Assembly: GCF_028641065.1 (NCBI RefSeq)
Contig: NC_073416.1
Span: forward strand, 6,262,001-6,326,000
From: Leucoraja erinacea
Lineage: Eukaryota
Length of the DNA stretch: 64,000 bases
Direction: 5' to 3'
The position numbers and the translations under genes were made by a program. The notes below the pieces were generated by a model that was given only the letters and a program-made list of their open reading frames with translations, had not been told where the DNA came from and ran no database searches. Numbering within the stretch: the first letter of the stretch is position 1; each line of letters starts with the position of its first letter. Positions 22,279-64,000 of this stretch are shown piece by piece.

Positions 22279-23475
22279 TCAGTGAGGAATTGCCGTTATT
22301 CTCATACTCTGTGACGCAATTGGATATGTAACCATTGGAGTGGTGGCATGGCTTATGGTGATTCCTGGCAGTGCTTGTGCAATTGACACTGCCACTGGTG
22401 CAACAGAAACAGCCACCGGGGCCATGGATACTGGAGGTGCCATTCCCTGGGCGATGGTCTGGGCCAGTGCAGCAGGGAGGGAAGCAATTTCCGGGTTAAG
22501 ATGTTGTGCTGTTGGTGCAGCATTGCTAGGCGGTGCAGCAGAAGCAGTTGCCACTAGATCTTGCTGGATGACTGGTCGTGGTTGAAGTGCATGGCTACTC
22601 AATGTGGTGTGAGTCTGTGCTATACCATGGTTGTAATTGGTCAGCGTAGCCACAGCTGGTGCTGCCAGTATTTGCTCTGTGGCTGTGGGAGTGGAAGTCA
22701 GTGTCACCACCTTGGTTTGGTTGCGGAAATGTGCATTTTGCTCCAAGAGCACCTCATTAGTTGCCATCAAATTCGAGATCTGCTTTTTCAGTTCCTCAAC
22801 TCGCTTTCGGAGCATCAGATTCTCCTCTTCTAGAAATCGATAGTCCACAGGACGCGAGTTTGAGATGCTAAAATCATAACTTTCAAATCGTAAGCCATCC
22901 ACTCTTCTCCTCTTTAGAATATGGTCATAGTCAATATAGCGATCAGTCTCATAGAGGTCATCAAATGGGTCGTATCGTCGCACGACAGGAGAGAGCACTT
23001 GATCTCGTGCCAATCTCTCCAAAGTTCTATTTTCATACTCGTATTCATCACGTTTTAAGTGCCGAAATTTACATTTAGATCCTCGTTGACAGTCCCCTTT
23101 CAGGTAATCTCGGCAGATTGGAACCTCGCCTTTTTTAAAAGAAAGGTCAGAAGGTGAAAGGCCAAGACCCATGGCCACCGTAAGGCGTAGACGTTGGGGA
23201 AGCTCTCCTGATTTTTTGTAATGTTCCTCATCTTCCTTTGTCCCATGAATAAACTTGCAGTTGATACGAGTGCACTCCTTGTTCTGATAATCATGGCAAA
23301 AGACAAACTCATTTTTTTTAACACCCAAGTCGGACACCTCGTTAATGTCGGGGTGGTAGAACTTGCAGCGCTTGCCACGTTTGCAGACATTGCGCAGGAA
23401 GTCACGGCAAATATCATCTGAGCTGTGGCCAGCCTCGTCATTACCTCTGTTAAATAAATTATCTTTATCCGGCAT
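22279..23475 (-). CDS. ZC3H10: Zinc finger CCCH domain-containing protein 10 (398 aa, single coding exon)
   Basis: MPDKDN...CRDFLRNVCKRGKRCKFYH, CHDYQNKECTRINCKFIH, CRDYLKGDCQRGSKCKFRH, KRRR basic motif, coiled coil LEEENLMLRKRVEELKKQISNL, C-terminus VTYPIASQSMRITAIPH. True ATG at 23475 (the track starts at an upstream GTG); acceptor-like AGs near 23508 and 23523. Confidence 0.96.
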   Translation of the reverse strand: MPDKDNLFNRGNDEAGHSSDDICRDFLRNVCKRGKRCKFYHPDINEVSDLGVKKNEFVFCHDYQNKECTRINCKFIHGTKEDEEHYKKSGELPQRLRLTVAMGLGLSPSDLSFKKGEVPICRDYLKGDCQRGSKCKFRHLKRDEYEYENRTLERLARDQVLSPVVRRYDPFDDLYETDRYIDYDHILKRRRVDGLRFESYDFSISNSRPVDYRFLEEENLMLRKRVEELKKQISNLMATNEVLLEQNAHFRNQTKVVTLTSTPTATEQILAAPAVATLTNYNHGIAQTHTTLSSHALQPRPVIQQDLVATASAAPPSNAAPTAQHLNPEIASLPAALAQTIAQGMAPPVSMAPVAVSVAPVAVSIAQALPGITISHATTPMVTYPIASQSMRITAIPH

Positions 23476-25714
23476 CTTCACAGACTATTATTGTGCTTCT
23501 CAGCAACTGTATAGAAAAACATCTGAAAAAGAAAATCAAGGTACGTCTTTACAGAGAAGGAGGAAGTCACCCACAAAGCAAGTGTCACTTGAACCACTGC
23601 ATTTTGAGCTCAGCAAGCTGAACGACATTTGCGTGGGAAAAATAAAGGCTTCTAATTGTGTATGTCTGGTGCCAGCATCAAATATTATTACAAAATTAGT
23701 TGTAGAAGTTAAATACACTTCCCTTCGATTTGTCTACTCTAGATATTTGGGTAAACAGGTCCCATTGTAGCAGTGACACAATTTACTTCCCCAATAATTG
23801 GTTAATTTATTTTAGTAAATTATAGATTTTATTTTTGCAGCTACTTATGCCCATTAAGATTTTGTTTAAAATTTGCCATACTTATTTCATTTTGAACAAC
23901 ACAACTAAAAAAAGGTGTGTGTGTGTGTGTGTGTGCGCGTCTGTGCGTCCCCCCTCCCCCCACTTGTGGGTGCCCGTGTCCCCAACGCTCCCACATACTG
24001 CCTTGATAAGAGTTTTACGAGAAAATGTTTGCATCTTCAGCCAGCAAATATTTCCTGCCGTTATGGTCGCAGGGCTAAATATGATGCTAAGCTTACATAA
24101 TTAATTAAAGATGAGGCCAACTTGTACTGATTTTAATTGCAGTTGTCCTTAGCCCAAAGTAAAGGGGAAACATAGCCGGAGTTCCCCTTTCTGATTTCAA
24201 CTCAGTTATTTCTGCTGGGAAATACACAACTGTACACTGAAGATATTTTCCAGTACATTATTTCCATTTTAATACTTGAAATTTCACATGACTCCAGAAG
24301 CCAATCAAAACAAAATAGCCAATAGAGCGCAGAGCAAGCTTGCTTAAATCGCAATTTGATAATGACCGGATAATTTATTATAGCGAGACAGGTTAATTGA
24401 TAAATATTAACTACAATTGCAAGGAATTACAATGCCTGACAATAGTTAACACAACTTGGAAGAGGACTTTGGCACCCAACCAACAGGCAAGTGGAAGCAG
24501 TATCGGGACATTCCCTCCTTCTCTTTTCTGGGAGCTCTTTCCATCCAGTCGACTCCAACACAGCAAGATGTGGAGTACAGCATCATTAGATGTCAACATT
24601 AGGCCATAACTACCATGCCTCAAGATCACTGCAGTCTGCCAAGACAGCAAGAGATGCAGGGAGCAAGCAGTCTGATTGCTTTCCAATATTGTTTAAGGGT
24701 CCCTATTTAAAGTAATCTGTGGTCTCTGATTTACCAATAGATCTTGGCAGAAAATTTCACATCATAATCATGCCCTATGTAAAATTGTATTTCATGATTG
24801 TTTATTTATGCTCTCATTGTTATCTCGCTGAGCAGTAGATAATCATATTTTAGCTTAATCGTAATCCCCCATGATTCTGAAAACCTCCAAGGTTGTCCTT
24901 TGTCCTTCTATATTCTATCAGAAGGCTAGCATCCCAAATCCCCTTTTTTATTTAAAGAAGAGACAAATTGATAAAAAGGACTTATTTCAGAGATTATTTG
25001 CACAATTATCAAGGGTTGAAAGGTTTGAGATGTGGAGTTGAAACCTTTGTGTTCACTCAAGAGGGGCGAGATATTCTGAAGTGGCTGGAAGTGTGGATTT
25101 CTATAAAACGTTGAGCAAGATCTACCTCCCTTATCTGTACTTCTGTCCAAATGAATTGCAAGGAACCTTCCCAGAAGCCTTTGCTGCTGTTCCCTTCCTG
25201 ATGAACAAGCCTGCTACATCGGATCCTGACACAGAGCAGTCATTAAGACTTACAGTATTTTCAGAAATAATTGAGAAGTTGCTGCAGAATTCTGCATTCA
25301 TTTCTGTACAAATAAACAGTACAACAGCATACAAGATCAAAAACATTGGCAATTAAAAGCAGTTGCTTGAAAAGCACAACTTGTCAGTGACAAACTGCCT
25401 GTGCACACTGCTGACTTCTATGGCAAGTTTAAACTTACCACTTCTGGATTTGCCACTGGCAACTTGTCACCACTGGCAAGACGAACATTTACTACCCATC
25501 CTTAATAGACCCCAACAAGGTGGAGGCGAGTCACCTTCCAAACTTCTACAGTCCTTCCAGTGGATACAAGCCCACAATATTTAGGGTAGAGAGTTCCAAG
25601 GTTTAGACCCAATTAGTTTGAAGGAACTGCAATATATTACCAAGTCAGGATCGCGGATGACTGGAAGGAACCTGCAAACTATGGTGTTCTCATAAGTCTG
25701 CTGTCCTTTTGCAG

Positions 25715-26280
25715 GGGGCGTTGCAGAGGGTGGTCAAATCTGCCCAAACAAATCACAAATAACTGCGTCCCTGCCATTGAGGACATTTACATCAGCAGGT
25801 GCAAGAGCAGAGCCTCAAACATCATGAAGGACCCCACCCACTGGACTCTTCCCCCCCCCCCCCCCCCCCTCCCCTCATGGAGAAGGCTGCACAGCATAAA
25901 GGCCAGGACAACAAGGCTTAAAGTCAGCTTCTTTCCCGAGGCCGTGAGACTTTTAAACTCCCTACCTCACTGACTGAACCCTCACTACCTCAGTGAACTG
26001 TCTGCTGCTACTGCTGCTGCTATGGTCATTATTATGCTGCTGTCTTTTAACCATGCTGCTTTTTACCTTTTACTATTTATTCACAGGCTCATTATTATTT
26101 GGATTTTATTGTGGAAGGTTTTATATAAGTTAGAATTCATTGATGTCTTTACTGCACTTTATTGATGTCTTACTGCACTATTACGCTGCTCGAACCCGAG
26201 TACAAATTTCGTTCATGATTCATGTGGAAGCATGTTTTTATCGAATGATAATAAATAAATCTTAAATCTTAAAATCTTTT
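25715..26280 (+). mobile_element. Rex1/L2-like LINE 3' fragment
   Basis: ALQRVVKSA-like coding remnant, SFFPEAVRLLNS, and aataaataaatcttaaatcttaaaatctt tail. Confidence 0.75.
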
Positions 26281-29200
26281 CCATTTTGGTGATATAGGTC
26301 ATGGGTTTATAAGGTGTTGCCCAAAACTCCAAAATGGCGAGGCCCTTAGCAGCAGGACAGTGCACTAGGTAATGGTGTCATGATGGCAATATGGGCTGAT
26401 CTGCCTTCCTTGCTTGTTCTATTGTCTAAATACTGTGCATTACAGGAAGCCTTCGCACACAATACAAATAAGCATTCTTTCAGAATTTGGAGCCATTGAT
26501 CAATGAAGAAAGGCAGCAGCTGGTTAAACCACACATCCAGGCTTAGCTGACTGTCAAAACTGTCAAGAACCAAAATCTCTTGAATGTCACTAACATTCAG
26601 AGACATTCAAGAGCTAGAAAAATAAATGAAACCATATTTGAATATCAAAACACTTAACAAACTTGATTAATTAAAAATAAATTACACTTTAGCTTTTACT
26701 GCCTCTGTCTCTCACAGCCCCATGCTGGAGAATTAATGAATCAACATTATTACAACAATTTTGGGCTCTGCTACTGGATTTCACAAATAGTTCAACATTG
26801 GAGTGCAATCGCTGAAGAGAGACCAACATATTCAGGCCTCCAATTCTGCGCCCTCATTCCCCCATTGCAAGACTCATTGTAGCAGAAGTAGAGGGTGTCA
26901 GCTTTCAACTTGATGAACAGTAATCCCCGTAAATTTATAAACTCTTGTAGTTTGTTAAAGACAAGTTGTATTGGTAACACTTGCTTGAGATTGGGAACCA
27001 ACTTGATATCATGCACGTATCTGCTCTAAAGTGTTAATACATGCATATTTTGGAGGAGCAAAGCGAGAAAGAAAATCCAAATTAATATTTGATGTCTTGT
27101 GATAAATCAGGTGTGACCTTATCATCATCCTTATGGTTCACAATCAGCGAAAGATCCAAAAGAAGTCTTTAAAATAAAGCTTTCCCCATGAACAAATGAA
27201 ATGCATAAACCTGACAATAACTGTCCTAAATTTTGCACTTCAGAGAACAAAACCTCCTTAATCAGGTTCAACTACATCCAATCAAAAGTGATTTCTAAAA
27301 AGTGCATATCATTAATTAATTAAGACATCACCCACCATAAACATGACCTGAGCAAACCTGCCTCTCTGCCCAAGGTAGGGTAGTGAATTTGCAACCTTTG
27401 TCTAGTATCCAAACTTCCACATGGCTATTACGATAAAATATCATAATTCAGAAATATGGAAATAACATCATGCTAAGTAACTATTTATCAAATGACTTAC
27501 TATATTCTGAAATGCCACATAACAAAATATACATTTCTAGCAAGAAAACTGGTCTGAAATTCTGGATAAACAGGAGGGGTCTGAAGACGAAGGGCTCCTC
27601 CAGTGGGTTTGAATCCATTGATTAAGAGAGTCAGAAGGTACACAAAAAAGCTGGAGAAACTCAGCGGGTGCAGCAGCATCTATGGAGCGAAGGAAATAGG
27701 CAACGTTTTGGGCCAAAACCCTTCTTCAGACAATCATATGGGCCCATCAAGACTCGGGATTGATCCCCAGTCTGTGCCAAGTTATTTGTCCATGACCAGG
27801 TAAACAGCAACTGTAGTATAATTGGCCTCAGAAAACCTGGTGAAATCAATTACTGATTGACAGAGTACTAACATGTAGAACTACTGAATGTAGATTCACG
27901 CCAGCAAATGCTCCATAAGTCAAGTTTCTGATCTCTTACCAAGCAAAAACCAGGGTCTTCTCAGATTGGAGAGGTGAACAAAATAAAACAGAAAATAAAC
28001 CACTAGCACATTCCTTCTGGCAATAGTTGCATCATAGGATCTGCCATGGTTTGGGTGTTTATAGTATTTTTGAATACAAGTATCTAATTTAACATACACT
28101 TTGAATATGCATTTCCACTGCTGATCTCTACATTTTTCCATATGATTCCTCACAAAGATCAAGCCACCATTTTAGTAGCAAGGAACAAAGGACAGGAATG
28201 AGCAGAGCATTTCACACAGGAACTGCAGCTTTCCCTAAACTGAATTTTAGTTGCCAACTTTAAGCAAAAAGGAAAATGTCTCTCACTATAAGATATAAGA
28301 CACAGACAGTAATGTTGCAGGTTTAAAGTCTAATACTATAATGGGTAGTAGCGTCTCCAGAATGGAGGCATTATACATCCACCTTCCTATCCCTGAATAT
28401 TACTTGGCTGGACTGTTAGAAATGTGCAGGTTTGACTATAATATTGTTCACAGACAAAAACCCTAATGCTATGAACTGCTCAACTCACCCATGAAGAAAG
28501 TCTCCTTTGTTGGGACACTGAAGTTTCCCGCACCTATGGAACAGTACATCCAGATAAGTTACTGTTTTCAGGATAGGGTTGACATAAAAGGATAGTTTTG
28601 GGAAGAGATTGTCAAGGATGGGATTGACCTCTTTGGACAGAGGAAGCGTCAAGATGTATAACCAGTTACGCCCAGACAGGAAGGACCAATTTTCTTTGCA
28701 AGAATAATAACCAGGTGACATAAATTCAAGATAATGTGCAGAAGGATTAGAAGGGAATGGAGTATTTTTCTGCATTCAAATTGCTGACAGTCTATAACAC
28801 ACTATCTGAAAGGGTGACAGAGGCAGAAAGCCTCATGTTTAAAATGTACATGTAAGAGCCACACAAATTGCCACCGTCTACAAGGGGCACAAACTGAAGT
28901 CAGATTAAATTATAGTTTGTTTGTGTGGTTACTGGCAAGGAGAGGATAAGCGACATCACCTCTTTCTATGCCACCATCTTCTACAATTCTATATGGAGAG
29001 GGGAAGGGGGGGGGGGGAAGGGAAAATAACTGGTTAAAAAACATTACAAATATGTATCATGGTTATGATATTATTCCATTATTAATTTCACGATGTAAAT
29101 TAAGGATTCATCTCTTTTTTCACAAGCATCTAATCTGCTTTAGAGCTATTCTATCAAGGTGATGCACAGAGATTATGAATTATTTTATGTAACAGAGAAA

Positions 29201-29525
29201 TTATATGGATTTGTTCATCTCAAATGCCTAAAATAAATGGTTATTACCTGCCTCACTGCCAACATTTCTCAAAGTCCAAAATAAAAACAGAAAATGCTGC
29301 AATGCTTTGTCGGCTATGAAGTGTCTACAACTTGAAACATTAATTTAATTTCTCCTTCCACAGCCAATAACTGACTTGCTGAGTGGCTCCAGCATATTTC
29401 CAACATCTGCAGTTTAATTTCTTTCCTTAATTTTACCTTTTGCTTTCATACATTCTGCTCCTTTGAGCTTAGCATACTTTTACATCACAGACACATCCCA
29501 ATGGTGAAATCCATAACTATAAATA

Positions 29526-30226
29526 AGGGTTTTCGGCCCGAAACGTTGCCTATTTCCTTCGCTCCATAGTTGCTGCTGCACCCGCTGAGTTTCTCCAGCA
29601 TTTTTGTGTACCTACTATAAATACCCATGTTGGTAGAGGCAATTATGATAGTAGCATTTAAGAGGTTTTTAGATGGGAATATGTATATGCTGGGAATGGA
29701 GGGATATGGATCTTTTGCAAGCAGAAGAGAGCTGTTCTTGGCATCATGTTTGGTATGGACATTGTGGGCTAAAAGGCCCATTTCAATGCTGTATTGTTCT
29801 ATGTTCGATCAAAGAATGGAGCGACTGGGCTTGTATTCACTGGAATTTAGAAGGATGAGAGGATATCTTATATAAAATTAAGGGATTGGACACACTAGAT
29901 GCAGGAAACATGTTTCTGGTGTTGGGGGAGTTCAGAACCAGGGGCCACAGTTTAAGAATAAGGGGTAGGCCATTTAGAACTGAGATGAGGAAAAACATTT
30001 TCACACAGAGTTGTGAATTTGTGGAATTCTCTGCCTCAGAGAATCACTGGATGTATTCAAAAGAGCTAGACAGAGCTCTTAGGGCGAGCGGAATCAAGGG
30101 GCATGGGGAGGAGGCAGGAACGGGGCATTAATTGGGGATGATCAGCCATGATCACATTGAATGGCAGTGCAGGCTCGAAGGGCCGAATGGCCTACTCCTG
30201 CACCTATTGTCTATGTTTCTATGTTT
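29526..30226 (+). mobile_element. Cluster of a Penelope-derived tail plus two CR1 3' fragments
   Basis: ORFs 29627-29875 and 29886-30131 with CR1 C-terminal motifs; (atgtttct) tail. Confidence 0.8.
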
Positions 30227-30890
30227 GTAGATTCTATTATGAAATCGATTTCACCTTACTACCTCTTCTCCCAGTTCCAAAACCTCTCATAACTTGGCTT
30301 CAAATCACACTTTGAGCCACCTCATTTAACTCTCTCCGAGAGTCCAGTCTCCTCTCTATTATAGACTAGTCTGGTGAAAGGTCTCGACCCAAAACATCAC
30401 CTGTTCCTTCTCTCCAGAGATACTGCGTGACCCGCTGAGTTACTCCAGCATTTTGTGTCTATCTCCTCGCTATAAAGTTTATTGGGACATTTTATTATAT
30501 TAAAAAGGTTTGACATAAATACGAATTAATGTACTAACAAAAAATAAAGCATTTTAACCGCAGTCTTACTCCAACTATTAATAGCAAATATCGAATATTT
30601 TGTGACTCTGGAGCAATCCAAGAATTCTTTAAACAATGTTTATTAAGTTTGTTACTATGAATCAAACCGCATAGAGTAACAAACTTGCTAAGGAAGGTTT
30701 CGAAGGCTGTTATGGGATTTCTAGGCCTCAGCATTCTGTTGCAGGGAACAACTCCATACGCAAGTAGAACTAAATCCCGACTAAAAATATTTAAATTATA
30801 GGCGTCATTAACAGAGTGGATTGGAACAATTACAAAATTGACAGAAACCAGGGACATATTTACAAACACGGTTAAGCTCCTTTTACTCAC

Positions 30891-30958
30891 TCCTCCAAAC
30901 ACAACGAGTACCACACAGGTCCTCCCAGACAAGAGCGACTTAGAGTCAAATAGCTGCA
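30891..30958 (-). other. ZC3H10: Putative non-coding first exon of ZC3H10
   Basis: Minus strand reads gtcgctcttgtctgggaggacctgtgtggtactcgttgtgtttggagga|gtgagt (strong donor); homologous to 31124-31177; 5' end unknown. Confidence 0.6.
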
Positions 30959-31123
30959 CTTGGCTGGAATGCTTAATTTCTCACAATGGGATGATGTATT
31001 TCAAGTTAACGTTGTTCAATTGAATATCCTCAAGATATTTTTTTCAAAGTAAACGCCTGAGCATATTGTACTGGAATACACATCGATAACAGATGCCTGC
31101 AGCTCCCAACAGCGTCTTCTGCC
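30940..31123. promoter_or_regulatory. Putative bidirectional promoter between ZC3H10 and its paralogue
   Basis: Short spacer between two divergently oriented homologous exon-like blocks, in a locally CpG-retaining region (~30550-31900). Confidence 0.5.
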
Positions 31124-31177
31124 GTCGCTCTTGCCTCGGAGGACCAGAATGGAAGCTCGTCGTGTTTGGAGGACCAA
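31098..31177 (+). other. Putative non-coding first exon of the ZC3H10-like paralogue
   Basis: gtcgctcttgcctcggaggaccagaatggaagctcgtcgtgtttggaggaccaa|gtgagg; inverted homologue of 30891-30939. Confidence 0.55.
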
Positions 31178-33765
31178 GTGAGGAGGGAGAGAGGGGAGAG
31201 GGGGGGGGGGGAGGCTAAATAGTGTAAGTGAATGCGTTGTCCTTTCTCCTTTTGTTATTGATCGAGTTTATTCCAATGTCGGTAAACTGTTTCTATCAAT
31301 ATATATATCTTTGAGAAATAGAACAATGTTTAGTTTCCATCTGTGCGCTGGAATATATCGGTCCGTGTGAATCACTTGAGGCCTAGGAGCGCAGTTGAAG
31401 CCTCGCGCCAAGTTCGAGAACTTTCCGTCGCAACCCCACCAAAACTGTCAACATCCAGGTTTCCTCATGGCGGTAGCCTAAGAACAAGGATTGTTTAAGG
31501 AAGAGAAGTCACGTCTAGTGGTTAGGTTAAACCCTATGGCCGTCTTGGAAAAAATGGAATAGTGAAATCCGGACACAGAATGAAAGTCCAATGAATGAAC
31601 CATTACAAAATGTCCAAGATGAGTGTAGTTTACCCATCACGGGATTCCCACAGAATTTATAAATCCGTATCAAGATATGTCAGTTTTTAAACCGTTTGCT
31701 CCAGGCGCCGGCTTCTTTTTGATATCATGGACCGATGGTGCTGCCCATCTTCAACCGAGTGGTTGTGCAGCATTTGGAGCAGTTGGGAATGTCGCTGAGT
31801 TTGGGGCAAAAGAAGATCACCGCTGTTCAGTCAGGTGCTAAATGCGTTGTTAAAATGAAAGTGGAGATTTTGCCGCCTGCCATGTTGTAATTCAGCAGTG
31901 TTTGGCGAGTGAAGTTGAACCCTTCCCATTCCATCATGTTGTGCAGTCTGAAGAAGGGTTTCGGCCCGAAACGTTGCCTATTTCCTTCGTTCCATAGATG
32001 CTGCTGCACCCGCTGAATTTCTCCAGCACTTTTGTGTACCTTCGTGCAGTACTTTCACCGGTTGTGTTTAACCACTTAATCAATGGGACTCAAACTATGT
32101 TCTGTACATGTGATTGAACAATAAATGTTTAACCAGTTGACTTTTTAAAAAGAACATTGGCTACTGGATTTAAAAAAAACAATTTCCCAATGATCGCCAC
32201 TTTGACATTTACCGTCTTCCTCCTTAGGTCACTGCATCTTCTATCTCTCAAGAGGAATAATCAGCAAGGTTCACTTGGCCACTTGAAGGTATGAGGGATG
32301 GAAAATGATCAGATTTTCTTTTCTCTTTGCTATTCTTTGAGGCAATAACAGATTTGTATTTTGTTACCATTTCCATTTAGCGATTAACATTGGCATTTCA
32401 CGATGTGAACACTTTTATTCTTCCTCCCTCTTTGTCCTGCTTGGTTTGGCTCCTTAATGCTCCTAAATGTGATGAATTGTGAGAGGTATAGCCTTTCACA
32501 TAGGAGTTACCCAAGCGATCATGTTAAACTAGGTGCACATATTGATTGCTACAGAGGCGCACAGCCAGGGTTAATCCTGCCTTTGCCCGGTGCCCATATG
32601 TGAGACCGCCTTTTGCCTGAGCAGATGAGATATTATACATTGATGGTCAGTACCCCATTATGCATTGCTTGGTGCGACACAGGAACCCACTAAAGTCTGA
32701 ATATCTCTGCGACACTTGCTGTAGGTGAAGGTAGTGCGCTGAGAAGATGCAAATTTGCTCATCTCTGTTTTCTCTGACCTCAAAACTAACTGGACTTGCT
32801 GCTTGGGGTTGAGAGGGAAAAATAGATCAGCTATGATCGAATGGCAGAATGGCCTAATTCTGCTCGTATGTCTATGGTCTTATGCTGCTCTTTGCTTCTT
32901 CCATTGCCCTTTTGAACAGTTGACCTCTTGAGATCATGACTGTTTGTGGCTATTTCCAAATTGCTGGTGCCCACCATCATCATATTGTATTTGCAATTAT
33001 CCTTGTTGTGGCGATATGGACATCAGCTGGTTGTGACCCCATGGACAATTTGTCATACAAAAGTGTTGTTGAAAATATTGCTATCATCCATCTCACAAAG
33101 ATAATTGCTCTGTTGCAGATGTAGTTAGTTTAGTAACAAATGTTTGTGGATGAACTTGGACTATTCCGGGCCCTTTGAGTACCCTTGTCCTGCCAGAACA
33201 TGCCAAGAATACATCTGTATAAACGTAGCTTTTGTGCTTTTGATCGGGCTGTATTGCTACACTATCGTAAAAACAAGTAACGGGCAAGTACAGTAGTACA
33301 ACATACTGTGCCATCTGTATTTATAAGGTGAGAAAATGATCCTCCCTTGCCTGCTGTGAGTTCAGAATCACAAATTGGATTAGAAACTAGTTGGGATTAG
33401 TGACCCAAATACTGAAAATTTAAAACTCGCAAAAGCACAACACAAAATAAAATTTCACCATCCAATATGTCAATGTTATTTTGGGGGGAAAAAAAGCTAA
33501 GTATACTGTTCTTGGAAGGTTGAGTGATACTTTAAATAGTTTGTCAGATATTTATTATGTTCTGTCCATCTTTGAGAAAATAGACCAATAATTTATATAT
33601 TTTATTTCAGTCAATTCAGATTTCATGCTTTATCATTCAGACAGTAACAGACCTCTTAGAAGGATGTAGAGTCGTGTATTCCTCTCAGATATGGTGTTAT
33701 CGGACTCATCCTCCTGAATACAAATAGAACTAGTGCAAGATAATCAAAGAGGAAAGATTAGGTAT

Positions 33766-34048
33766 GTGTAGGAAAGAACTGCAGATGCTGGTTTAAATCG
33801 TAGGGTAGACACAAAATGCTGGAGTAAATCAGCAGGACAGGCAGCATCTCTGGAGAGAACGAATGGGTGACGTTTCGGGTCGAGACCCTTCTTCAGGAAA
33901 GAATAGGTCTTATTGGAGACCAATTAACAGCCTGAGATATCTGAGATGAGCAGTCTGAAGAAGTGTCTCGACCTGAAACGTCACCCATTCCTTCTCTCCA
34001 GAGATGCTGCCTGTCCCGCTGAGTCACTCCAGCTTTTTGTGTCTATCT
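33766..34048. mobile_element. Penelope-derived inverted pair with a ~55-bp spacer
   Basis: Two opposed copies of the gtaggaaagaactgcagatgctgg...cccttcttcag unit. Confidence 0.75.
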
Positions 34049-34247
34049 GAGATATGCAAAGTTCCATAAGAATAACTTGTAGCTGTTCAAGGAAAACTGG
34101 TGTTATATGGGCATTGACATTGAGATAGAAAAATGTGGTATTGGAAACATTGAACATAAAGAAGTAGAGGACGTATTAAAAAGGTCTGGCAAAAGTGGAT
34201 AAATTGGTTGATCAGGATAAAATGTATTTCAAGCCCTTTTATTAGGT

Positions 34248-35278
34248 ATGTTACAAAACCTACCTGAATCGTGGCTGAGAATCTGCCCCACCCCGTGTGC
34301 GCGATTTTGGCGCTGTTTAGAGGGGGCGGGTTTAAAACGCGATTTTTACTAGGCTGTTCCAATCGAAGATGTTCAGCCTAGTAAATCATTAACGAAAAAT
34401 CGCTGAAAGACCCCGTCGCAAAAGGTATTATTAGTTTTTATGGCCTTGTATAATAGTTATAGTAGTTTTAAAATCACTCTCTCAACCCGCGACCTCTCGC
34501 AGCCCCAGGGTTTTATAAAGCAAACAATTAAAGGTATGTACCTTATTTTTACATTAAAAGGGGCTTCTTAAGAACCCTGTATATAAAGTTTTCTATAGCG
34601 AGTAGTTCATTTTGGGCTCTTTATATCCCGCAGTATTTTTCTGGGCATTTGAGGGCACAAATCCAGCGCAATGTGAACGTTCTAAACCAGCGCGTTCACA
34701 GGATCCCAGTAGAAAGCTGAATTTAAAATGGACTTTAATTTACAGCAATTGAACACTAAATTCCTTCCATTTGGCCTATAAATTGATGTAAATGAGATTT
34801 TAAAATCATGTTTTATTGTGAATTATTTGTGAATATTATTTGGACACTTAGGCTATTTAAAAGTGTTAATCATTTATTAAGAAATGGATAGATGTTTAGA
34901 TCTAGTAATTGAAGTTTGAAATTAGCTACAATTGGGTAACTAACTAATTATATGCTTTAATTTCAGGTCATCCAAGTAAGATTATTTTATATTTGTTTCA
35001 GAATGGTTCAATCTATGATAACTGAACATTTCATTCAGTTCTCTTAATTTTTAAGACGGTTATGGGCTTTTGACTGTCCACGATCACAGCTTTTTTGTTA
35101 TGTCCATAGTAAATCAATAGGGAACAAGATGCTAATTTCCGAGTATGAAAATGGCCATAACTTTTTTATTACTTGAGATATGAAAGTGAATTAGGTGTCA
35201 AATTAAACTTATTTTTATGCTTTGTCTGATGGGATAAATTGCAGACTTGATTTTTTAAATCTCAAAATTTTGTAACAT
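34248..35278. mobile_element. Probable non-autonomous DNA transposon (~1 kb)
   Basis: 11-bp terminal inverted repeats ATGTTACAAAA / TTTTGTAACAT; CpG-rich left part unlike the flanks; no ORF. Confidence 0.5.
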
Positions 35279-35356
35279 TGATATTAAAAACATTTTTTTT
35301 TAAATTAAAAAATGCAGCAGCCGACATAAATCAGGCTCTGACTATAATTTTCTAAT

Positions 35357-35572
35357 GAAGATAGACACAAAATGCTGGAGTAACTCAGCGGGACAGGCAA
35401 CATCTCTAGAGAAGAAATGGGTGATGTTTCAAGTCGAGACCCACTGAAGAAGGGTCTCGACCCGAAACGTCACCCATTCCTTCTCTCCAGAGATGCTGCC
35501 TGTCCTGCTGAGTTACTCCAGCATTTTGTGTCTATATTCGGTTTAAACCAGCATCTGCAGTTCCTTCCTACA
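35357..35572. mobile_element. Penelope-derived palindromic repeat
   Basis: Inverted arms; contains CTGAAGAAGGGTCTCGACCCGAAACGTC at 35444-35471. Confidence 0.8.
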
Positions 35573-36554
35573 CTATAATTTTCCAGTGCCTTGAGGACTG
35601 GAAGATTGTTACTGTGGTATGATTTTTTTTAAAGAGTAAAAGGCATATACTGACATCCACGGGTCAGTCGGCTTAAATGTCAGGTGAAGTTATTGTAAAT
35701 TTGCATGTCTGCATTTAGAGAGGAAATTTGCATATGTCTGCACCAAGTTAACCGCAGACACTTTGCATGGAAGACATATGACTTGCGAACTTAGTTGCTT
35801 TTCTTGAGGAGATTGTTAAGAGCATTTGATGCACTACAAATGGATTTTGGAGTGGTGTTTGATAAAGTCTCACATAACAAGTCGAGCAGGAAACTATATG
35901 CTGACACGATCCAAAGAAAAGAGGCAATTGAAGTATTAATCTTATAAGAGACCTAGAAAGAGCGAGGGTAAACACAAAAAAAGAATGTGACTGGAGAATT
36001 TCCATTGGAGACCAATAACTTGAGGCATAGATTTAAGTTAATTGGTGAAAGGATAGAAGGAAATTAAGAAAAAAATCATTTAATCAGTGGTGATCTGAGC
36101 TCATTGTCTGAAAGACACCATCAGCACAGGAGAAGGTAATTCAGTTATTTGAGCCTGCTCCACCACTCATGACTGATACAACTTTTATCAAGTCCTCTCA
36201 ACCACCCCCCCCCATCTGTTTCCTTACAACCCTTGTTTCACGTATTGATTAAAAATCCATCTCTCATCTTTCAACAATTCGACCTCAATGGCTTTTTTAG
36301 GTGAAAAGTTTCCAATCTTTTGGGAGAAGAGATTCTTCCTCATCTCTATCTTAAATGGGCAGTCCTTTATCTGAGACTTCTGGTCCTAGACTCTGCCATG
36401 AGGGGGCTTCACAGCATTTAGTCAATCAAGCTGCCCAAGAACTTTGGATATTTCAATGAGATTGTCTCTTGTTCTTCAAAACTCCAATGACTTGACCCAA
36501 CCTGTTCCTGCACATCAATCCCTTTGAATGCGATAGGATCAAAGAAGGTGAAAT

Positions 36555-37390
36555 AAGATACAAGATACATTTAATTGTCATTTGGACCCCTTGAGGTCCA
36601 AACGAAATGCCGTTTCTGCAGCCATACATTACAAACAAATAGACCCAAGACACAACATAATTTACATAAACATCCATCACATCGCTGTGATGGAAGGCCA
36701 AATAAACTTATCTCTCCACTGCACTCTCCCCCCCCCCCCGATGTCAGAGTCAAAGTCAAAGCCCCCGGCTGGCGATGGCAATTGTCCCGCGGCCATTAAA
36801 GCCACGCCGGGTGGTGTGAGGTCGCACACCGGGTCTTGGTGTTAGAGCCCCCGGCGTGCGCTCGCAGAGTCCCGCGGCCATTCCAAGCCGCGCGGGGCGG
36901 TGATGTTAGGCCCCGCTCCAGGAGCTCTTCGACCCCGCAACTCGGGCGGGAGAAGTCGCCGTTGCGAGAGCCCTGAAAAGCGGTCTCCCTCCAGGGACCC
37001 GCGGGCTCCCGGTGCCGCCGTCCGCAGACCTGCAGTTGAAGCCTCCGACTCTCCGGTCAGGCCGCAGCAGCAGCAGCAGCAGCGCGCTCCTCCACTGCTC
37101 CACCCGCTCCGGACTCGGCCAGCTCCGCGACGGTGAGGTGAGTCGTCGGCACCAGAGTCCCCGGTCTCTTCCTGTTGGAGGCCGCTCCTCATTGCAGCCC
37201 CAACGATAACGTAGACTGGACGAGAAAAGGTCGGGTCTCCCGTGTAGGGAGAGATTTAAAAGTTTCCCCCTCCCTCCCACCCCACCCCCCCACACACACC
37301 CACACGAGCCCCAACAACAAATAACAAAAATTACGTAAAAACATAGACAGAAAATAATAAAACGCGGACGGGCTGCAGAGGCCGCTGCTG
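36555..37390 (-). mobile_element. GC/CpG-rich non-autonomous retroelement with a LINE-type tail
   Basis: Abrupt GC-rich block in AT-rich intron; the minus strand ends atgacaattaaatgtatcttgtatctt, resembling the tail of the LINE at 51473. Confidence 0.6.
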
Positions 37391-38459
37391 ACTCTTTTTC
37401 TTTGATTTTGAGGTCCTGAGATAGAATTACAGTAAGAAGCGGCGCAATCAGTTTTGAATTCTCCAAGTGAGGTTGCAGGAGTCTAGGAGGAACAAGAAAA
37501 AATTTCACAAGACTACTGAATATATCAATGTAAATTTTGCTTTTATTAAAATAAATAGAAAATGAGTGGTTAAGAGAATTGACAAACAGCAAACTTTTTC
37601 TCGCATCATATCTGGAAACCTGCAAGGAGAATCAACTCCTTTTACAATGGGATCTGCACTCAAAAGTTGTTTGATACACATGATGTTAATAAAGAGTTAA
37701 GAGCTAATAAGGAGGGAAGAGGGGCGCAATGTTTTACGAATAGCCTTGCTATTTGTGCGGGGTGGTAGGCATAGTTTAAGATCGGGTAATATGGAACATT
37801 TAAAAAAAATTAAGAATAGGGAGCTATCAATGATAAAGGGGGGAGTAACACGAGTCAGACATTGCAATGGAAAAGGAACGTGGATTACAGCATGAGAACC
37901 CGTGGCCTTTAGTCCTGAAAACGATGCAGCTTGCAATGAAGTTGACAATATATGTTGAAGAGAGCTTTTTTTTTTTGACTGTTTTATAAATCATCATTCA
38001 AGATTGCTTCTTTAAAGTTATCTTGACATTGTTTCTATTAAAGTGTATATTTTGCTTAAATTGGCTTTTACAAATAAAAATGTTAACCTTTTTCAGGGTC
38101 TTCACTTCAATAATACTCCTTTGTGCGTATATATTTCAGCAGTATGTCTTGATTTGTCTCTAACATGCTAATTTGTACATTTAAAGATATTCGTTTACTG
38201 TTCAAAACATACCTGCCATTTTTAATTTGTTAAAGTCGATATTTACTTTAGCATCTCTGGCATTGTACTTGCACACAGATGGCAGATCAAAATGTGTGTT
38301 TGAAGTAGAATTTAAGCGACCAATTCTGAAAGGATTATTTTTTTAAATTCTGCTGCATAGCAAAAAATTTCCATAATAGTTACGGTAATTACATCTGCTG
38401 TGGAATTCTATGTGAAAACAAAGATCAGCTTTTCAAGTGGCTATGCTACCGTTTTAACG

Positions 38460-38680
38460 TGATAGACATGAAAAGCTGTGGTAACTCAGCGCGTCAGACA
38501 GCATCTCTGGAGAAAAGGAATAGGTGACATTTTGGGTCGAGACCCTTCTTCAGAAGATCCATAGGGTCTCGTCCCGAAACGTCACCTATTCCTTTTCTCC
38601 AGAGATTCTGTCTGAGCCACTAAGTTACTCCAGGTTTTTGCGTCTACGATTTAAACCAGCATCTGCAGTTCCTTCCTACG
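38460..38680. mobile_element. Penelope-derived palindromic repeat
   Basis: Same unit as 5763 and 35357, inverted pair. Confidence 0.75.
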
Positions 38681-39200
38681 CTTTTAATGAGGTCGGCTGA
38701 CTCTGAGTTTAATCAGCACTACTTCTTCATAATCTTCTTTAACATGTTGCTTCAGGAATTTGTTTCTAGTACTGATTCTAACGTCCTGCATTTACAAATT
38801 ACTATAAAAATCACTTGCAGTATGAATTTAATTTTTTCCATGCGTGTACTGTCTGGAGTGCAATAATCGAGAAGACATGTTTACTTTGTTATGCCGGTGT
38901 CTTTTTCAGGAAAACTCAAAGCATTGGTATTTGCGATATTAAAAGCAAAACTGCCGACTTAATACTGCTTATCTCTTTTTAAATATTAATATAAACCTTG
39001 ATGTTCCACTGGTAACTTGCTGTAAGTATTTTCTATTGAATTAACGATGTAGGAACAGCTACAATATTTTGTGAGAAAGGGATTAAGCTAAATTACTTTG
39101 TAGATGAATCTCTTATTTATTGTAAAAGACCTGGCTTCTTTTTCTTTTACAGTTGTTTATTGAGAGCCTTGGCTGAGTAGCGCAGAAATATTCTGGAAGC

Positions 39201-40739
39201 ATGTCCGAGAACGACACTGATAATTTAGTCAACAGCGGCAAAAATGAGCCTGGCAAGAGCAAACGGAATGTTTGCCGAGACTTTCTGCGCAATGTCTGCA
39301 CTCGTGGTAAGAATTGCAGGTACTTCCACCCTGACAATGTTGAGGCCTCCGACCTTGCCGACATAAGGAACGACACTGATAATTTAGTCATCATTACCAA
39401 TGACGAAGCTGGCAAAAACAAATCGTACATTTGCCGAGACTTTCTGCGCAATACCTGCAGCCGTGGTAAGAATTGCAGGTATTTCCATCCAGATGATATT
39501 GAGCCCTCTGTCCTCGCTGATGTAAGAAACGACATTGATAATTTAGTCAACTTTGGCAATGATGAGGCTGACAAAAGCAATCTGAATATATGCCGAGACT
39601 TTCAGCGGAATCTCTGCAATCGTGGTAAGAATTGCAGATATTTTCACCCAGATGATATTGAGGTCTCCAACCATGCTGACCTAAGTGATGACGCTGATAA
39701 TTTCGTGAATAATAGCAAATTTGATGCGAGCAAGAGCAAAAGGAATGTTTGTCGTGACTTTCTGCGCAATGTCTGCACCCGTGGTAAGAATTGCAGGTAT
39801 TTTCACCCGGATAATGTTGAATCCTATGATGTAGGTGATATGCGGCATGAGTCTATCTTTTGTCAGTACTTTCAAAATAGCAAATGTACCCGTGAGAACT
39901 GCACGTTCATTCACGGGACAAAGGGTGAAGAGAATTATTACAATAAAACAGGAAAGCTTCCTTCCCACTTACAAAAGACAGTGGCTGTGACATTTGGGCT
40001 CTCGCCCTCCAATTTGCCTCTTATTACAAAGGAAGTCCCATTCTGCCGTGACTTTCTAAAAGGCAAATGTCGAAGAGGATCCAAGTGTAAATTCCAGCAC
40101 TTGAAACGCGATGACAATGATAAGACCAGTATAGAAAATGTGTCACAAAATAAAGAAGCTTCTCCTGAGATCTGTAGATATGACCGTTTGGATGACCTGT
40201 ATGAGACGGAGAAATGTGATGTTGACCAAACTCCAAAAAGGAAAAGAACGGAGGGTCTACGGTTTGAAGTATTTGATTACAGCATCCCCAATCTGCGTCC
40301 AGTTGAAATGAATTTTTTGGAGGAGGAAAACCATATGCTCAGAATGCGCAATGAGGAGCTTAAGAAGCAGGTGTCAAGCCTAAAGATTACAAATGAGGTA
40401 CTTCTGGAGCAAAATGCTGATTTACGCAAGCAAGTGAAACTGGGGATCCTGACCACAGGGACTGACCCAACACAATCACCAGCTATGCACGCTGTTACCA
40501 ATTATAATCATAGTATAGTGGAGACTCACACCACCCTGAGCAACCAGGTCGTGAGATCACAGTCTATTTCTCATCAAGAATTGATAGCGCAAGCTAGAGC
40601 TCATAATGCTTTATGTTCTGAAGCTACATCCCAAAGTCCACCCTGTCTTAGTGCTGCTCTCTCGACACCTTATGCCCAAGGGGTGGCTTCACCAGTTTCA
40701 ATCGCACAATTGCCATCTCAGTTGCACCATTGGCAGTGA
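39201..40739 (+). CDS. ZC3H10-like paralogue with six CCCH fingers (512 aa)
   Basis: Four C-x7-C-x5-C-x3-H fingers, then CQYFQNSKCTRENCTFIH, CRDFLKGKCRRGSKCKFQH, PKRKR and coiled coil LEEENHMLRMRNEELKKQVSSL; acceptor ttttcttttacag| ending at 39152. Confidence 0.9.
   Translation: MSENDTDNLVNSGKNEPGKSKRNVCRDFLRNVCTRGKNCRYFHPDNVEASDLADIRNDTDNLVIITNDEAGKNKSYICRDFLRNTCSRGKNCRYFHPDDIEPSVLADVRNDIDNLVNFGNDEADKSNLNICRDFQRNLCNRGKNCRYFHPDDIEVSNHADLSDDADNFVNNSKFDASKSKRNVCRDFLRNVCTRGKNCRYFHPDNVESYDVGDMRHESIFCQYFQNSKCTRENCTFIHGTKGEENYYNKTGKLPSHLQKTVAVTFGLSPSNLPLITKEVPFCRDFLKGKCRRGSKCKFQHLKRDDNDKTSIENVSQNKEASPEICRYDRLDDLYETEKCDVDQTPKRKRTEGLRFEVFDYSIPNLRPVEMNFLEEENHMLRMRNEELKKQVSSLKITNEVLLEQNADLRKQVKLGILTTGTDPTQSPAMHAVTNYNHSIVETHTTLSNQVVRSQSISHQELIAQARAHNALCSEATSQSPPCLSAALSTPYAQGVASPVSIAQLPSQLHHWQ
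39210..39845 (+). repeat. Coding tandem repeat, 4 x 159 bp (53 aa), one CCCH finger per unit
   Basis: Units start at 39210, 39369, 39528 and 39687 (NDTDNLV / NDTDNLV / NDIDNLV / DDADNFV). Confidence 0.95.
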
Positions 40740-41639
40740 CGCAATCGCTCCCAGAAATTGCCATGAATTATACCATCACTCAAATGGTCAGTTATCCAAA
40801 TGCATCACAAAATATGAAGTTCCTCTGTCGTGCAGAGGATAGTTGAGATTAGAAGGCATTTAATTTGAAGCTTTACAAGAGATTTCTATTTCTTATTGGT
40901 TCCCAGGGCAATTGCAAAAAGTGAGTCAAGTATGATTGTTAAAGAGGGAGTCTCACCATCACCAACCCTTTTGCAAAGTCAAAAATGAAATGATGAGAAT
41001 TTGTGTTTTCTGTCTCGTTTGTTGCTGTTTAACTCGTCTGGAGAACAGGTTGCGCAGAATTGTACCTCAGCAGTAGTAGCAAATGGAAGTTGAAACGTGC
41101 TTCAATTTGCAGCCATATATGTCGCAAATTTCTTTTGGTGGGGGGGAAGAAAGATTGAATTGAACTCAAGTTTTTGAATTCTTTGAAACCTTTTTTTGAT
41201 TTGCTCATGTTGTAAGCTCTGGTGCAAATGAAAGCAAAGTCTTTGACAGCGCATTGCAATGCCCACACCAACTCAAGCTTTCCAACTGCAGCAGCAGTGG
41301 GATAAGGTTTTGTCTGCAAATATGGCTGCTTTCTTTTGCTCATGTAAAATTGGTTTCAATCAACATCAAAACATCAACTTTCTAAAAACACTTGTACATG
41401 CGCTTAAAGAGCATTGTGCCTTTACAACTTTTTTAATCGCTTTTTTTTAAGACACAAAATTATTATAAAACTACAAAAAATTTACCCTCATTCACTTCTT
41501 CATACCACCCAACCAAAAATATAATCCTCTGCTGCTTTGATTGTGGTCAGAGCAGAAATTAAAGAATGCAGAAAATGACGCCATGGCTCCCTTTTCTCCC
41601 TCTTGTTGGAGAACTGTCTTGCAGCATAAATGCAATTAG

Positions 41640-54189: not shown

Positions 54190-54650
54190 CCAGGCTTCAC
54201 TGTGTCTGCCGTCAAAGGTGTTGGTGTTGCCTTCAGCCGGCGGGCGGCAGGGGGCCGGGGTTTCCTCTTGGCTCGGAGGACCAGTCACGAAGTTGCCCTT
54301 TACTGGGAGGACCTGCGTAGAGCCTCTTTGTGTCGGAGCTGTGAGGGAAGAAGCCGAGCCGAAGTGTATAGGTATCCCAGCCCTGGTTTGTGAGTTTTCA
54401 TGCACTTTAATGTACCCGTGGCATTCTCGATTTGAATGTGCAAACGTTGTGCGGAGAGAGTCCGCATTTGTCTGCGGCCGGGAGGCGTTTTAATTGTAAC
54501 AGGAAGTCGAGGCCTAAAGGCGCCATTTGCGGCCTTAAATCCAAGCAAAGCGATAGTGAGGTTCCTGTTGCTTCTCACAGCTACAATCTGGAGCGACTGA
54601 GTCTGTGTTCATCAAAGCACATGCTTAGATATGTAGATCGACGATAACAA
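54190..54650 (+). promoter_or_regulatory. CpG-rich putative promoter / first exon of the third ZC3H10 copy
   Basis: Contains ctcttggctcggaggaccag...ggaggacc (54265-54313), homologous to the two exon-like blocks near 31 kb; ETS-like CAGGAAGT (~54500) and YY1-like GCGCCATTT (~54520). Confidence 0.5.
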
Positions 54651-62800: not shown

Positions 62801-63870
62801 TAGTTGTGGGGTAGTTGTGGTTGGAAGCTGCTGCCTCACAGCTCCAAGCACCTGGGCTCATAGCTGTTTTCAGATTATCTCTTATTTTCCCATGGTAGAC
62901 AAAAATGTTGGAGAAACTCAAGAGGCAGCATCTATGGAGCAAAGGAAACGGGTGACGTTTCGGGTCGGGACCCTTCTTCAATTTCTTCTTATTTTCCCCA
63001 AAGTATTTCTGGTAGGTTAATTAGCTACTCTAAATCACCCCCTAATTATAAGTAAGTGGCAAAGAGAATCAAAGGGAAGTTAATAAGTGAGGAGAAGATG
63101 CTGGAATACGGGGCAAGTAAAGTGGTAGTATGAGACGAGTGACGTTGTCCTCCTGGGAGGTAACTTTATAAGATAAAGTAGAAAGAAATGGGCAAAATTT
63201 TCTGATTTAAAAAAATAAAATTTAAAAAAATTAAAATTAAACTTTCCTCCAAATCTGTAAATTGTACGTAGATGGACTTTTATTTTTCTCTTGTTTATTA
63301 ATTAGACATTCCCAGATGGCTCAGTTTAAGATGACCAGTTGAGCTATATAGCCTATAAGTCCCAAGTCTTATCTCTGTTGTGAGTTATCTAATCACAGCT
63401 AGCTTGGTGGTAATGGAATGTCACGTTATCTTTAGGTGAGTTCTCCAACAGGGAGTGAAAATTGAATCAGTCTCTTTCCAGATCACAATCCAGTGGCCTC
63501 TTCTGGCACTGCATGTGTGAGCATGTTTGGCTTTGATGTCCTTGCATGAGAATAGCTTCCTAATCGTTGATGTTTTGGGGGCCACATGTAGGGCAAAGCT
63601 GGGTGAGGAACAAGAAACACCCTAAATCTAATACACCTATGTTGTCTTCATGAGTGGAAAGAAGAAATTTGAGACAAAGTAGATTGTTGAAATTTTATTG
63701 TTTATTATTGTATGTACGTCTTCCATTAAATTGATGGAAATTTAAGCACTGATATGGGTGAATTGGTAGACTTGCAGTTAATTCCCTTTGTCTTTGTAAA
63801 GATATAACTTGTTTTTCTTTTGCAGTTCCTTGCTGAGCATCTTGAATGAACAGCGCTGAATTAAACTAAA

Positions 63871-64000
63871 ATGTCAGGTACAGATCATGTAGTCAACACT
63901 GGCAACAACATGACTGCCAATAGCATTGATATTTGCTGAGAACTCGTGCAACTTCTGCATCTGCGCCAAGCGCTGCAAGTTCTGCTACCCAAAGGCAAAT
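63871..64000 (+). pseudogene. Third ZC3H10-like copy, 5' part only (window ends); first finger disabled
   Basis: Acceptor ttttcttttgcag| ending at 63825; MSGTDHVVNTGNNMTANSIDIC*ELV then, after a 2-bp deletion, NFCICAKRCKFCYPKAN, aligning to ZC3H10 ...DICRDFLRNVCKRGKRCKFYHPDIN. Confidence 0.8.

What the first reader, a model, noticed from the sequence alone, without database searches (positions are those of the whole stretch)
30885..31183. Inverted duplicate first exons flanking a ~185-bp spacer: a duplication-born bidirectional promoter
Seen: minus strand gtcgctcttgtctgggaggacctgtgtggtactcgttgtgtttggagga|gtgagt versus plus strand gtcgctcttgcctcggaggaccagaatggaagctcgtcgtgtttggaggaccaa|gtgagg. 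Both end in donor sites pointing toward their own coding exon, and they lie almost at the midpoint between the two ATGs. Inference: this marks the symmetry axis (~31030) of an old foldback duplication, and parent and paralogue share or compete for one promoter.
Basis: partly seen in the sequence, partly recalled or inferred. Interest (0 to 1): 0.75.

Follow-up and report, generated by a model that had tools for sequence, protein, structure and literature searches.

The report
Head-to-head ZC3H10 paralogues in a skate
Two related RNA-binding-protein genes of a skate face away from each other with look-alike front ends only 184 bases apart, probably sharing one promoter, a known kind of layout that here involves a six-finger gene copy kept across sharks and rays.

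Summary
In detail: 30891-30939 (minus) and 31124-31173 (plus) are 84% alike over 50 columns, 184 nt apart, each ending at a GTGAG donor. They face a conserved ZC3H10 (A, minus) and a six-finger paralogue (B, plus). It is far better kept than silent sites (42/49 against 32/72). B has orthologues in 17 shark and ray species, apparently next to A. A relative's DNA contig spans block-spacer-block. Not shown: start sites, use of these donors, co-expression. The one spliced B contig points to a middle exon, not to the joint 31177-39153. The fold-back axis is unsupported: the spacer is not symmetric, intron interiors share nothing, and three copies need at least two events. Verdict: an old head-to-head paralogue pair, probably on one short two-way promoter (about 0.6), like COL4A1/COL4A2; a new member of a known kind. 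A model supports, but does not show, an A-B coiled-coil dimer (0.62, best control 0.00).

The parts
30891..30939 (-). Conserved block A: putative non-coding first exon (3' part) of ZC3H10 copy A; two ~29-nt units with a GGAGGA core; donor GT at 30890-30889
   Evidence: exon use inferred, not seen in reads
30940..31123 (.). 184-nt single-copy spacer, putative shared core promoter; GC 0.39, 4 CpG; no significant symmetry; none of the 10 recalled promoter motifs scanned hit inside it
   Evidence: spanned by one 1511-nt DNA contig of run X19
31124..31177 (+). Conserved block B: putative non-coding first exon (3' part) of paralogue B; two 30-nt units; one upstream ATG at 31149; donor GT at 31178-31179
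   Evidence: exon use inferred
31001..32000 (.). CpG-enriched zone on B's side (41 CpG, observed/expected 0.81, GC 0.45; whole window 0.45 and 0.40); below classical island GC
32228..32288 (+). Candidate middle non-coding exon of B (61 nt, ends in AAG); one of 8 donors and of 6 cassette candidates found by a crude scan
   Evidence: fits X1 record 4 but is not proven by it; no homologue found in the introns of A or C
22279..23522 (-). Coding exon of ZC3H10 copy A: acceptor at 23523, ATG 23475, 398 aa, three CCCH fingers and a coiled coil
39153..40739 (+). Coding exon of paralogue B: acceptor at 39152, ATG 39201, 512 aa, six CCCH fingers (first 53-aa unit four times, 159-nt period); frame shift near 40710 cuts the tail
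   Evidence: spliced at this acceptor in X1 record 4
54265..54345 (+). Third copy of the block (three units), in a GC- and CpG-rich patch with a GC box at 54242; weak donor GCT|GTGAGG at 54341
63772..64000 (+). Homologous acceptor (63825) and start (ATG 63871) of ZC3H10 copy C, broken by a stop at 63937-63939 and a 2-nt gap; cut by the window end

Best explanation
The block is the 3' part of the ancestral non-coding first exon of ZC3H10 with its splice donor. An early duplication in cartilaginous fishes copied the whole gene (first exon, long intron, single coding exon). One copy ended up inverted, so that A and B point away from each other with a 184-nt spacer; a further duplication left C, now broken. 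SHOWN: homology, layout, three-copy correspondence, conservation above silent sites, age at least as old as the shark-ray split, splicing of B at its acceptor. INFERRED: both start sites lie in or beside the spacer, which works as one nucleosome-sized two-way promoter; the blocks are kept by selection on first-exon definition or promoter-proximal signals; B transcripts often carry a middle exon, as mouse Zc3h10 has three exons. SPECULATIVE: the linkage is kept because A and B are dosed together and pair through their coiled coils, B adding three extra copies of the RNA-binding finger ZF1. Whether the inversion came by fold-back or by tandem duplication and later inversion cannot be read from what is left.
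For: Block found three times in 64 kb, each time upstream of a ZC3H10 acceptor, in that copy's orientation, ending at GTGAG; with the three sites masked the best scores fall to 13.5 and 15, the level of 40 shuffled queries (means 13.9 and 13.5, maxima 18 and 19; real C scores 25 and 20.5). Block identity 42/49 against 32/72 at fourfold sites of A and B (binomial 3e-9, not corrected for picking the best local match). The first ~200 nt of the introns are weakly alike for A-B and A-C (17 of 1000 shuffles each) but not B-C (717 of 1000). 31001-32000 holds 41 CpG, a count reached by 6 of 64 one-kb pieces. One DNA contig of run X19 covers 30436-31970 unbroken, 21 other letters and 26 gap letters. 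X1 record 4 leaves the window at the 39153 acceptor, 28 letters lying elsewhere. B orthologues in 17 species, 16 with six fingers, one with five; A and B RefSeq numbers lie within 30 of each other in 13 of 13 species where both were listed, strictly consecutive in 6. Several RefSeq numbers for one identical protein imply untranslated-exon variants (inference). Mouse Zc3h10 has a floxed exon 3 after exons 1-2 (PMC6911170, passage). Complex model of the two coiled-coil regions: 0.62, best of 3 controls 0.00; runs agree in at least 59% of contacts, partner pLDDT at least 68; mark reached by 39 of 65 solved eukaryote pairs without a like complex and 2 of 126 unrelated pairs; close relatives of a partner are untested.
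Against: No start site and no joint at either donor was seen (tables filled by repeats, 8616 joints not shown). X1 record 4 matches the acceptor's AG, so its upstream exon ends in AG, whereas block B ends in CCAA: not a direct joint. In X1, B's coding exon is covered (depth 2.5-4.6) and A's coding bins 22651-23952 are not; in X21 both coding exons have depth 0 (one edge bin 0.06); so co-expression is not seen (holes prove nothing there). The spacer is AT-rich, unlike typical two-way promoters, while broken copy C has the GC-rich upstream. Donors are middling (6, 7 and 5 of 9 consensus positions). X1 record 1 (31581-31847) lies in B's first intron and may mark another 5' exon. Orientation and spacing in sharks could not be checked. 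The complex pass may only reflect two homologous coils, and the controls were not chosen as coiled coils.
Confidence: 0.62

Rival explanations
1. Origin rival: one fold-back event made A and B at once, with the spacer as the loop and the axis near 31030.
For: Inverted copies around a short single-copy spacer is the layout described for fold-back (PMC3907307, abstract and passages). The homologous edge starts at the same motif on both arms. Amniote fused gene models join ZC3H10 to PA2G4 or to a C2/SMP protein (P0061, P0028), which suggests same-strand neighbours there and so a head-to-head state born with the duplication (inference).
Against: Spacer symmetry at chance level; arm homology is limited to the block, perhaps the intron's first 200 nt, the acceptor and the coding exon; junction microhomology cannot survive a silent-site distance near 1.0; copies run minus, plus, plus, with no further ZC3H10 coding copy found between MIP and A, so one inverted triplication does not fit; site patterns do not resolve the order (AB 40, AC 30, BC 26 of 252 columns). 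Tandem duplication and later inversion gives the same picture.
Confidence: 0.3
2. The block is conserved but is not (or no longer) the first exon of both genes: it is an internal or minor exon or a DNA element, and the main starts lie elsewhere, for instance in the CpG-richer 31.3-31.9 kb stretch.
For: No joint at the donors seen; X1 record 4 needs an upstream exon ending in AG; X1 record 1 covers 31581-31847 at the depth of B's coding contigs; CpG enrichment is one-sided, toward B; spacer AT-rich with no scanned motif.
Against: All three copies end at GTGAG in register; no acceptor-like homology upstream of the block; for A any start further upstream would have to cross block B on the other strand; a middle exon explains record 4 without moving the start.
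Confidence: 0.22
3. The likeness of the two arms is kept up by gene conversion between close inverted copies, not by function; one arm may be vestigial.
For: 84% in non-coding DNA against 44% at fourfold sites; arms are 184 nt apart; A and B share more columns with each other than with C (49 against 35 and 30 of 208).
Against: C lies 23 kb away, is broken, and still keeps the block at 75% over 57 nt; 8 differences in 50 columns and a sharp end at the donor suit selection better than recent conversion; B's first unit resembles C's unit 1 and A's resembles C's unit 2.
Confidence: 0.1
4. The block is a piece of a dispersed repeat that happens to sit in inverted orientation.
For: The window is full of inverted SINE-like pairs, which give the higher-scoring axes. 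The bin holding block B has X19 depth 536 against a floor near 45-75, though that bin also holds a G-rich run. No genome was available for a count.
Against: One partner per block in self-blast at E<1e-3 against 26 hits on a neighbouring SINE; three copies only, each tied to a ZC3H10 copy; the X19 contig runs through the block and ends at the flanking SINEs; no Rfam match.
Confidence: 0.04

Closest known systems
COL4A1/COL4A2 and the other COL4A pairs (10.1101/2023.10.18.563013, passages; two-way promoter per its cited titles)
   Same: Paralogues head to head, short shared upstream region, linkage kept over long times, products that assemble together (here only modelled).
   Different: Here the 5' non-coding exons are still alignable, the pair seems limited to cartilaginous fishes, a third broken copy follows, one partner has gained three fingers, and two-way activity is untested.
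Divergent gene pairs under 1 kb with presumed bidirectional promoters (PMC2871058, passages: 924 of 5855 divergent human pairs)
   Same: Divergent orientation, putative 5' ends 184 nt apart.
   Different: Spacer is AT-rich, not a classical CpG island; most such pairs are unrelated genes (recalled); start sites not mapped.
Fold-back inverted duplication with disomic spacer (PMC3907307, abstract and passages)
   Same: Inverted copies around a short single-copy spacer.
   Different: Described cases are recent, large, next to terminal deletions or translocations, with junction microhomology; this is an ancient interstitial single-gene case with no readable junction.
Vertebrate ZC3H10 (PMC6911170 and PMC13375009, passages)
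   Same: A has the three CCCH fingers, basic stretch, coiled coil and tail, 69-76% identical to bony-vertebrate and chimaera proteins; B keeps the same order of parts.
   Different: B has ZF1 four times (six fingers), is about 50% identical to A, sits on a long branch, and in this lineage has a shifted, shorter tail.

Membership tests
Head-to-head pair with bidirectional promoter | Two genes on opposite strands, 5' ends facing | tested here: met
   A minus, B plus; block-spacer-block on one contig in a second data set
Head-to-head pair with bidirectional promoter | Transcription starts within 1 kb of each other | tested here: inconclusive
   Putative first exons 184 nt apart; no start or joint displayed in the lay
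Head-to-head pair with bidirectional promoter | Shared DNA drives transcription both ways | not testable with these tools
   Needs a reporter or CAGE
Head-to-head pair with bidirectional promoter | CpG island over the promoter (typical, not obligatory; thresholds recalled) | tested here: not met
   Spacer GC 0.39, o/e 0.57; 31001-32000 GC 0.45, o/e 0.81
Head-to-head pair with bidirectional promoter | Co-expression of the two genes | tested here: inconclusive
   X1 covers B's coding exon and only A's 3' bin; X21 covers neither; X24 under depth 1 on both
Head-to-head pair with bidirectional promoter | Arrangement conserved across species | tested here: inconclusive
   Neighbouring accession numbers in 13 of 13 species, same longest contig in 11 (2 not comparable); orientation seen only here and in X19
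Fold-back inverted duplication | Inverted copies around a single-copy spacer | tested here: met
Fold-back inverted duplication | Continuous homology of the arms outward from the spacer | tested here: not met
   Only block, weak intron start, acceptor and coding exon align; decay with age could explain this
Fold-back inverted duplication | Short inverted microhomology at the spacer junction | tested here: inconclusive
   Spacer symmetry at chance; silent-site distance about 1.0
Fold-back inverted duplication | Adjacent terminal deletion, translocation or ring | not testable with these tools
   No genome held; event hundreds of millions of years old
Dispersed repeat (SINE, MITE) | Many copies at unrelated places | tested here: not met
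   Three copies in 64 kb, all at ZC3H10 5' ends; genome-wide count not possible
Structured RNA families (Rfam) | Match at gathering score | tested here: not met
   0 matches in the window
ZC3H10 family (copy B) | ZF1-ZF2-ZF3, basic stretch, coiled coil, tail in that order; groups with ZC3H10 | tested here: met
   ZF1 repeated four times
ZC3H10 family (copy B) | RNA or DNA binding activity | not testable with these tools
   Needs binding assays

The most novel reading that the evidence does not exclude
All sharks and rays carry, probably on their ancient X chromosome, ZC3H10 and a six-finger sister gene locked head to head on a nucleosome-sized, AT-rich two-way promoter whose mirrored first exons have been kept by selection since before the shark-ray split; the two proteins are co-dosed and form a coiled-coil heterodimer in which the sister supplies four copies of the RNA-binding finger, a lineage-specific regulator so far undescribed. 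[quoted passage not shown]
Probability: 0.22. Interest if true: 0.65.

Novelty: new member of a known kind. Interest (0 to 1): 0.42.

Why it matters
Paralogues that stay head to head on a very short promoter are few, and here the first exons are still alignable and a third, free-standing copy gives an internal comparison. That makes it a compact test of how a one-way promoter turns two-way after duplication and whether linkage is kept for co-dosage. It also points to a six-finger ZC3H10 paralogue conserved at 82-93% across sharks and rays that databases name only 'ZC3H10-like' and that my searches did not find discussed. If ordinary, it is still a good annotation lead (missing 5' exons, a broken third copy).

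Tried and rejected
Whole-genome search: no genome held, so no genome-wide repeat count and no look beyond copy C. Spacer as palindrome: a first test looked significant (6 of 1000) but used the wrong null; the proper null gave 207 of 2000 and 51 of 347 window pieces; half against half gave 612 and 204 of 1000. Spacer against C's upstream: 454 and 157 of 1000, no signal. Homologue of the 61-nt middle exon in the introns of A or C: none above shuffles (105 and 64 of 200). Run search: no RNA holder on record was listed. Lay of 4 of the 24 listed runs: repeats filled the tables of joints and ends, so it neither shows nor excludes splicing at 30890 or 31178; X21 (about 6 in 100 read) had no depth on either coding exon. 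Recalled promoter motifs: no hit in the spacer. Rfam: 0. Dating: B falls sister to A plus Callorhinchus (86/86, 93/89, neither starred), but A+B without Callorhinchus is not rejected (p-AU 0.11), so before or after the chimaera split stays open; B rows were cut to start at their last repeat, and one search used 18 of the 32 rows. Earlier findings: three look-ups, nothing. Papers: 'ZC3H10'+'shark' 3 hits, +'paralog' 17 hits with 12 listed, +'cartilaginous' 1 hit, none about this locus by title and abstract start; supplements of three shark X-chromosome papers gave no ZC3H10 hit, but only 1 file was held for PMC12318234, which lists two, so a gene table may have been missed. Midpoint argument rejected.

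Full report
Setting. The window is vertebrate DNA of a skate-like fish: copy B groups with Rhinoraja longicauda (98/95; 93% identical). It holds a MIP gene at the left (Pfam MIP on 451-810), many SINE-like repeats and no Rfam match. No whole genome is held.

The observation. Blastn of the window against its reverse strand gives 30891-30939 with 31173-31124, 84% over 50 columns, E 1e-6. The local score is 58 against at most 31 in 1000 shuffles. The spacer is 184 nt. Both arms end at GTGAG, with 6 and 7 of 9 donor consensus positions. The arms face two single-exon reading frames: A (minus, 398 aa), 94-98% identical to shark and ray ZC3H10, and B (plus, 512 aa), about 50% identical to A, with the first 53-aa finger unit four times. 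Their acceptors and the last 60 nt of intron are homologous.

A third copy of the block lies at about 54265-54345 on the plus strand (75% over 57 nt to A; 19 of 20 to the start of B), and 9.5 kb on come a homologous acceptor and a ZC3H10 start with a stop after 22 codons and a 2-nt gap. With the three sites masked, the best match of either block falls to the level of shuffled queries. The block is built of 29-31-nt units with a GGAGG core: two in A, two in B, three in C. So it is part of the ZC3H10 gene unit and was copied with it. A neighbouring SINE collects 26 self-blast hits where each block collects one.

Constraint. Fourfold sites of A and B agree at 32 of 72 (distance about 1.0), the block at 42 of 49 (the binomial 3e-9 ignores that the best local match was picked). 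The 1-kb piece 31001-32000 has 41 CpG, a count reached by 6 of 64 pieces, but GC is 0.45 and the spacer itself is AT-rich with none of 10 recalled motifs. C's block lies in a GC-rich patch (0.59) with a GC box.

Age and spread. B has orthologues in 17 named shark and ray species, 16 with six fingers and Pristis with five (two partial Hemiscyllium models left out; 15 of 19 members of the largest cluster were listed). Among the 120 listed of 437 hits there is one chimaera protein, with three fingers, and nothing between 82% and 50% identity. In 13 of 13 species with both listed, the RefSeq numbers of A and B are within 30, consecutive in 6; the longest contig is the same in 11 and not comparable in 2; one older GenBank pair (Scyliorhinus torazame) is not adjacent. 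Adjacency is inferred from numbering; orientation is not visible. Trees put B with the chondrichthyan genes (96/92) and sister to A plus Callorhinchus without star; the alternative is not rejected (p-AU 0.11).

Reads. I laid 4 of 24 listed runs on 22000-41500. Repeats swamped the joint tables. Usable: an X19 contig of 1511 nt runs from 30436 to 31970, so the layout is no assembly artefact of this window; X1 (RNA by guess) covers B's coding exon and 3' end while several unique intron bins are empty; its record 4 starts at 39151 with 28 letters elsewhere, so B is spliced at that acceptor. The match includes the AG, which means that the upstream exon ends in AG; block B ends in CCAA. A 61-nt candidate exon at 32228-32288 fits, but so do 7 other donors. 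Mouse Zc3h10 has an exon 3 after two earlier exons (PMC6911170, passage), which makes a middle exon expected. X1 record 1 (31581-31847) may be another 5' piece. Starts, use of the two donors and co-expression were not seen.

Mechanism of origin. Fold-back gives inverted copies around a single-copy spacer with junction microhomology, next to a terminal loss or translocation (PMC3907307, abstract and passages). The layout fits; nothing else can be tested. The spacer is not symmetric, intron interiors share only repeats, and minus-plus-plus order needs two events. Tandem duplication with later inversion is as good. I give fold-back 0.3. 'Parent' and 'paralogue' are also unsure by position: A is the slow copy, but which copy holds the ancestral place needs the genes beyond C.

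How it most likely works. One short promoter between mirrored first exons fires both ways (inferred, about 0.6). The exons are kept for donor definition or promoter-proximal signals (inferred). ZF1 and ZF2 bind RNA and the zipper region binds DNA in mouse ZC3H10 (PMC6911170, passages); fingers and coiled coil are needed for repression of interferon-stimulated genes (PMC13375009, passages). B's four ZF1 copies should change RNA binding (inference). A model of the two coiled-coil regions scored 0.62 against 0.00 for the best of 3 controls, with at least 59% shared contacts and partner pLDDT at least 68; on eukaryotes the mark was reached by 39 of 65 solved pairs without a like complex and 2 of 126 unrelated pairs; close relatives of a partner are untested and two homologous coils may pass by likeness. 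It supports a heterodimer without showing it.

Comparison. It works like COL4A1/COL4A2 (10.1101/2023.10.18.563013, passages) and falls in the class of divergent pairs under 1 kb (PMC2871058, passages). Membership waits on start sites. The shark X is homologous to part of human chromosome 12 (PMC10620051, passages) and is shared by sharks and rays (PMC12318234, passages and section 6; PMC11406177, passages, which took the skate X as unrelated). That MIP and ZC3H10 lie at human 12q13 is recalled, so X-linkage is a lead, not a result. Both proteins are in RefSeq as 'ZC3H10-like'; searches and supplement searches found no account of the pair, within a library that lacks most subscription papers.

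Verdict. Observation confirmed; interpretation partly supported. New member of a known kind; interest 0.42.

Noticed in passing
window 40709-40843 (+): B's frame shifts near 40710; the orthologous 45-residue tail continues in the next frame at 89% identity to Rhinoraja. Three Logan proteins (7, 12 and 2 contigs) have the same short end, so it is real and recent.
   Followed up: partly
window 23522-23475 (-): A's coding exon opens with an upstream ATG right at the acceptor (23522); the second acceptor at 23507 would skip it. Several sharks have a 358-aa RefSeq isoform that starts in another frame and lacks ZF1 (P0124, P0127, P0130); that frame is open here too.
   Followed up: no
window 26811-26595 (-): A cassette-exon candidate in A's intron lies in the one unique intron bin of A where X1 has depth (0.64). 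Possible middle exon of A; weak.
   Followed up: no
window 31581-31847: A 267-nt X1 contig in B's first intron, at the depth of B's coding contigs: another 5' exon or retained intron.
   Followed up: no
window 451-10162 (+): Four-exon MIP (aquaporin-0) gene: 451-810, about 6622-6786, 8068-8148, 9977-10162, read; convergent with A.
   Followed up: partly
window 58598-59324: Inverted repeat with 287-nt arms, 94% complementary, 153 nt apart, in C's intron; looks like a non-autonomous DNA transposon (recalled likeness).
   Followed up: no
window 48333-50460, 51741-52492, 54727-57700: Reverse-transcriptase-like frames of LINE fragments (likeness recalled, not scanned).
   Followed up: no
window 34260-35300 and 36600-37400: Two high-copy insertions in B's intron (X19 depth in the tens to hundreds of thousands), the second GC- and CpG-rich.
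   Followed up: no
proteins P0009, P0010: Rhinoraja has two near-identical A-type genes on one chromosome: the locus is still duplicating in skates.
   Followed up: no
proteins P0061, P0028: Fused gene models join ZC3H10 to PA2G4 (rhinoceros) and to a C2/SMP protein (ibis; domain names recalled, likely ESYT1), hinting at same-strand neighbours in amniotes.
   Followed up: no
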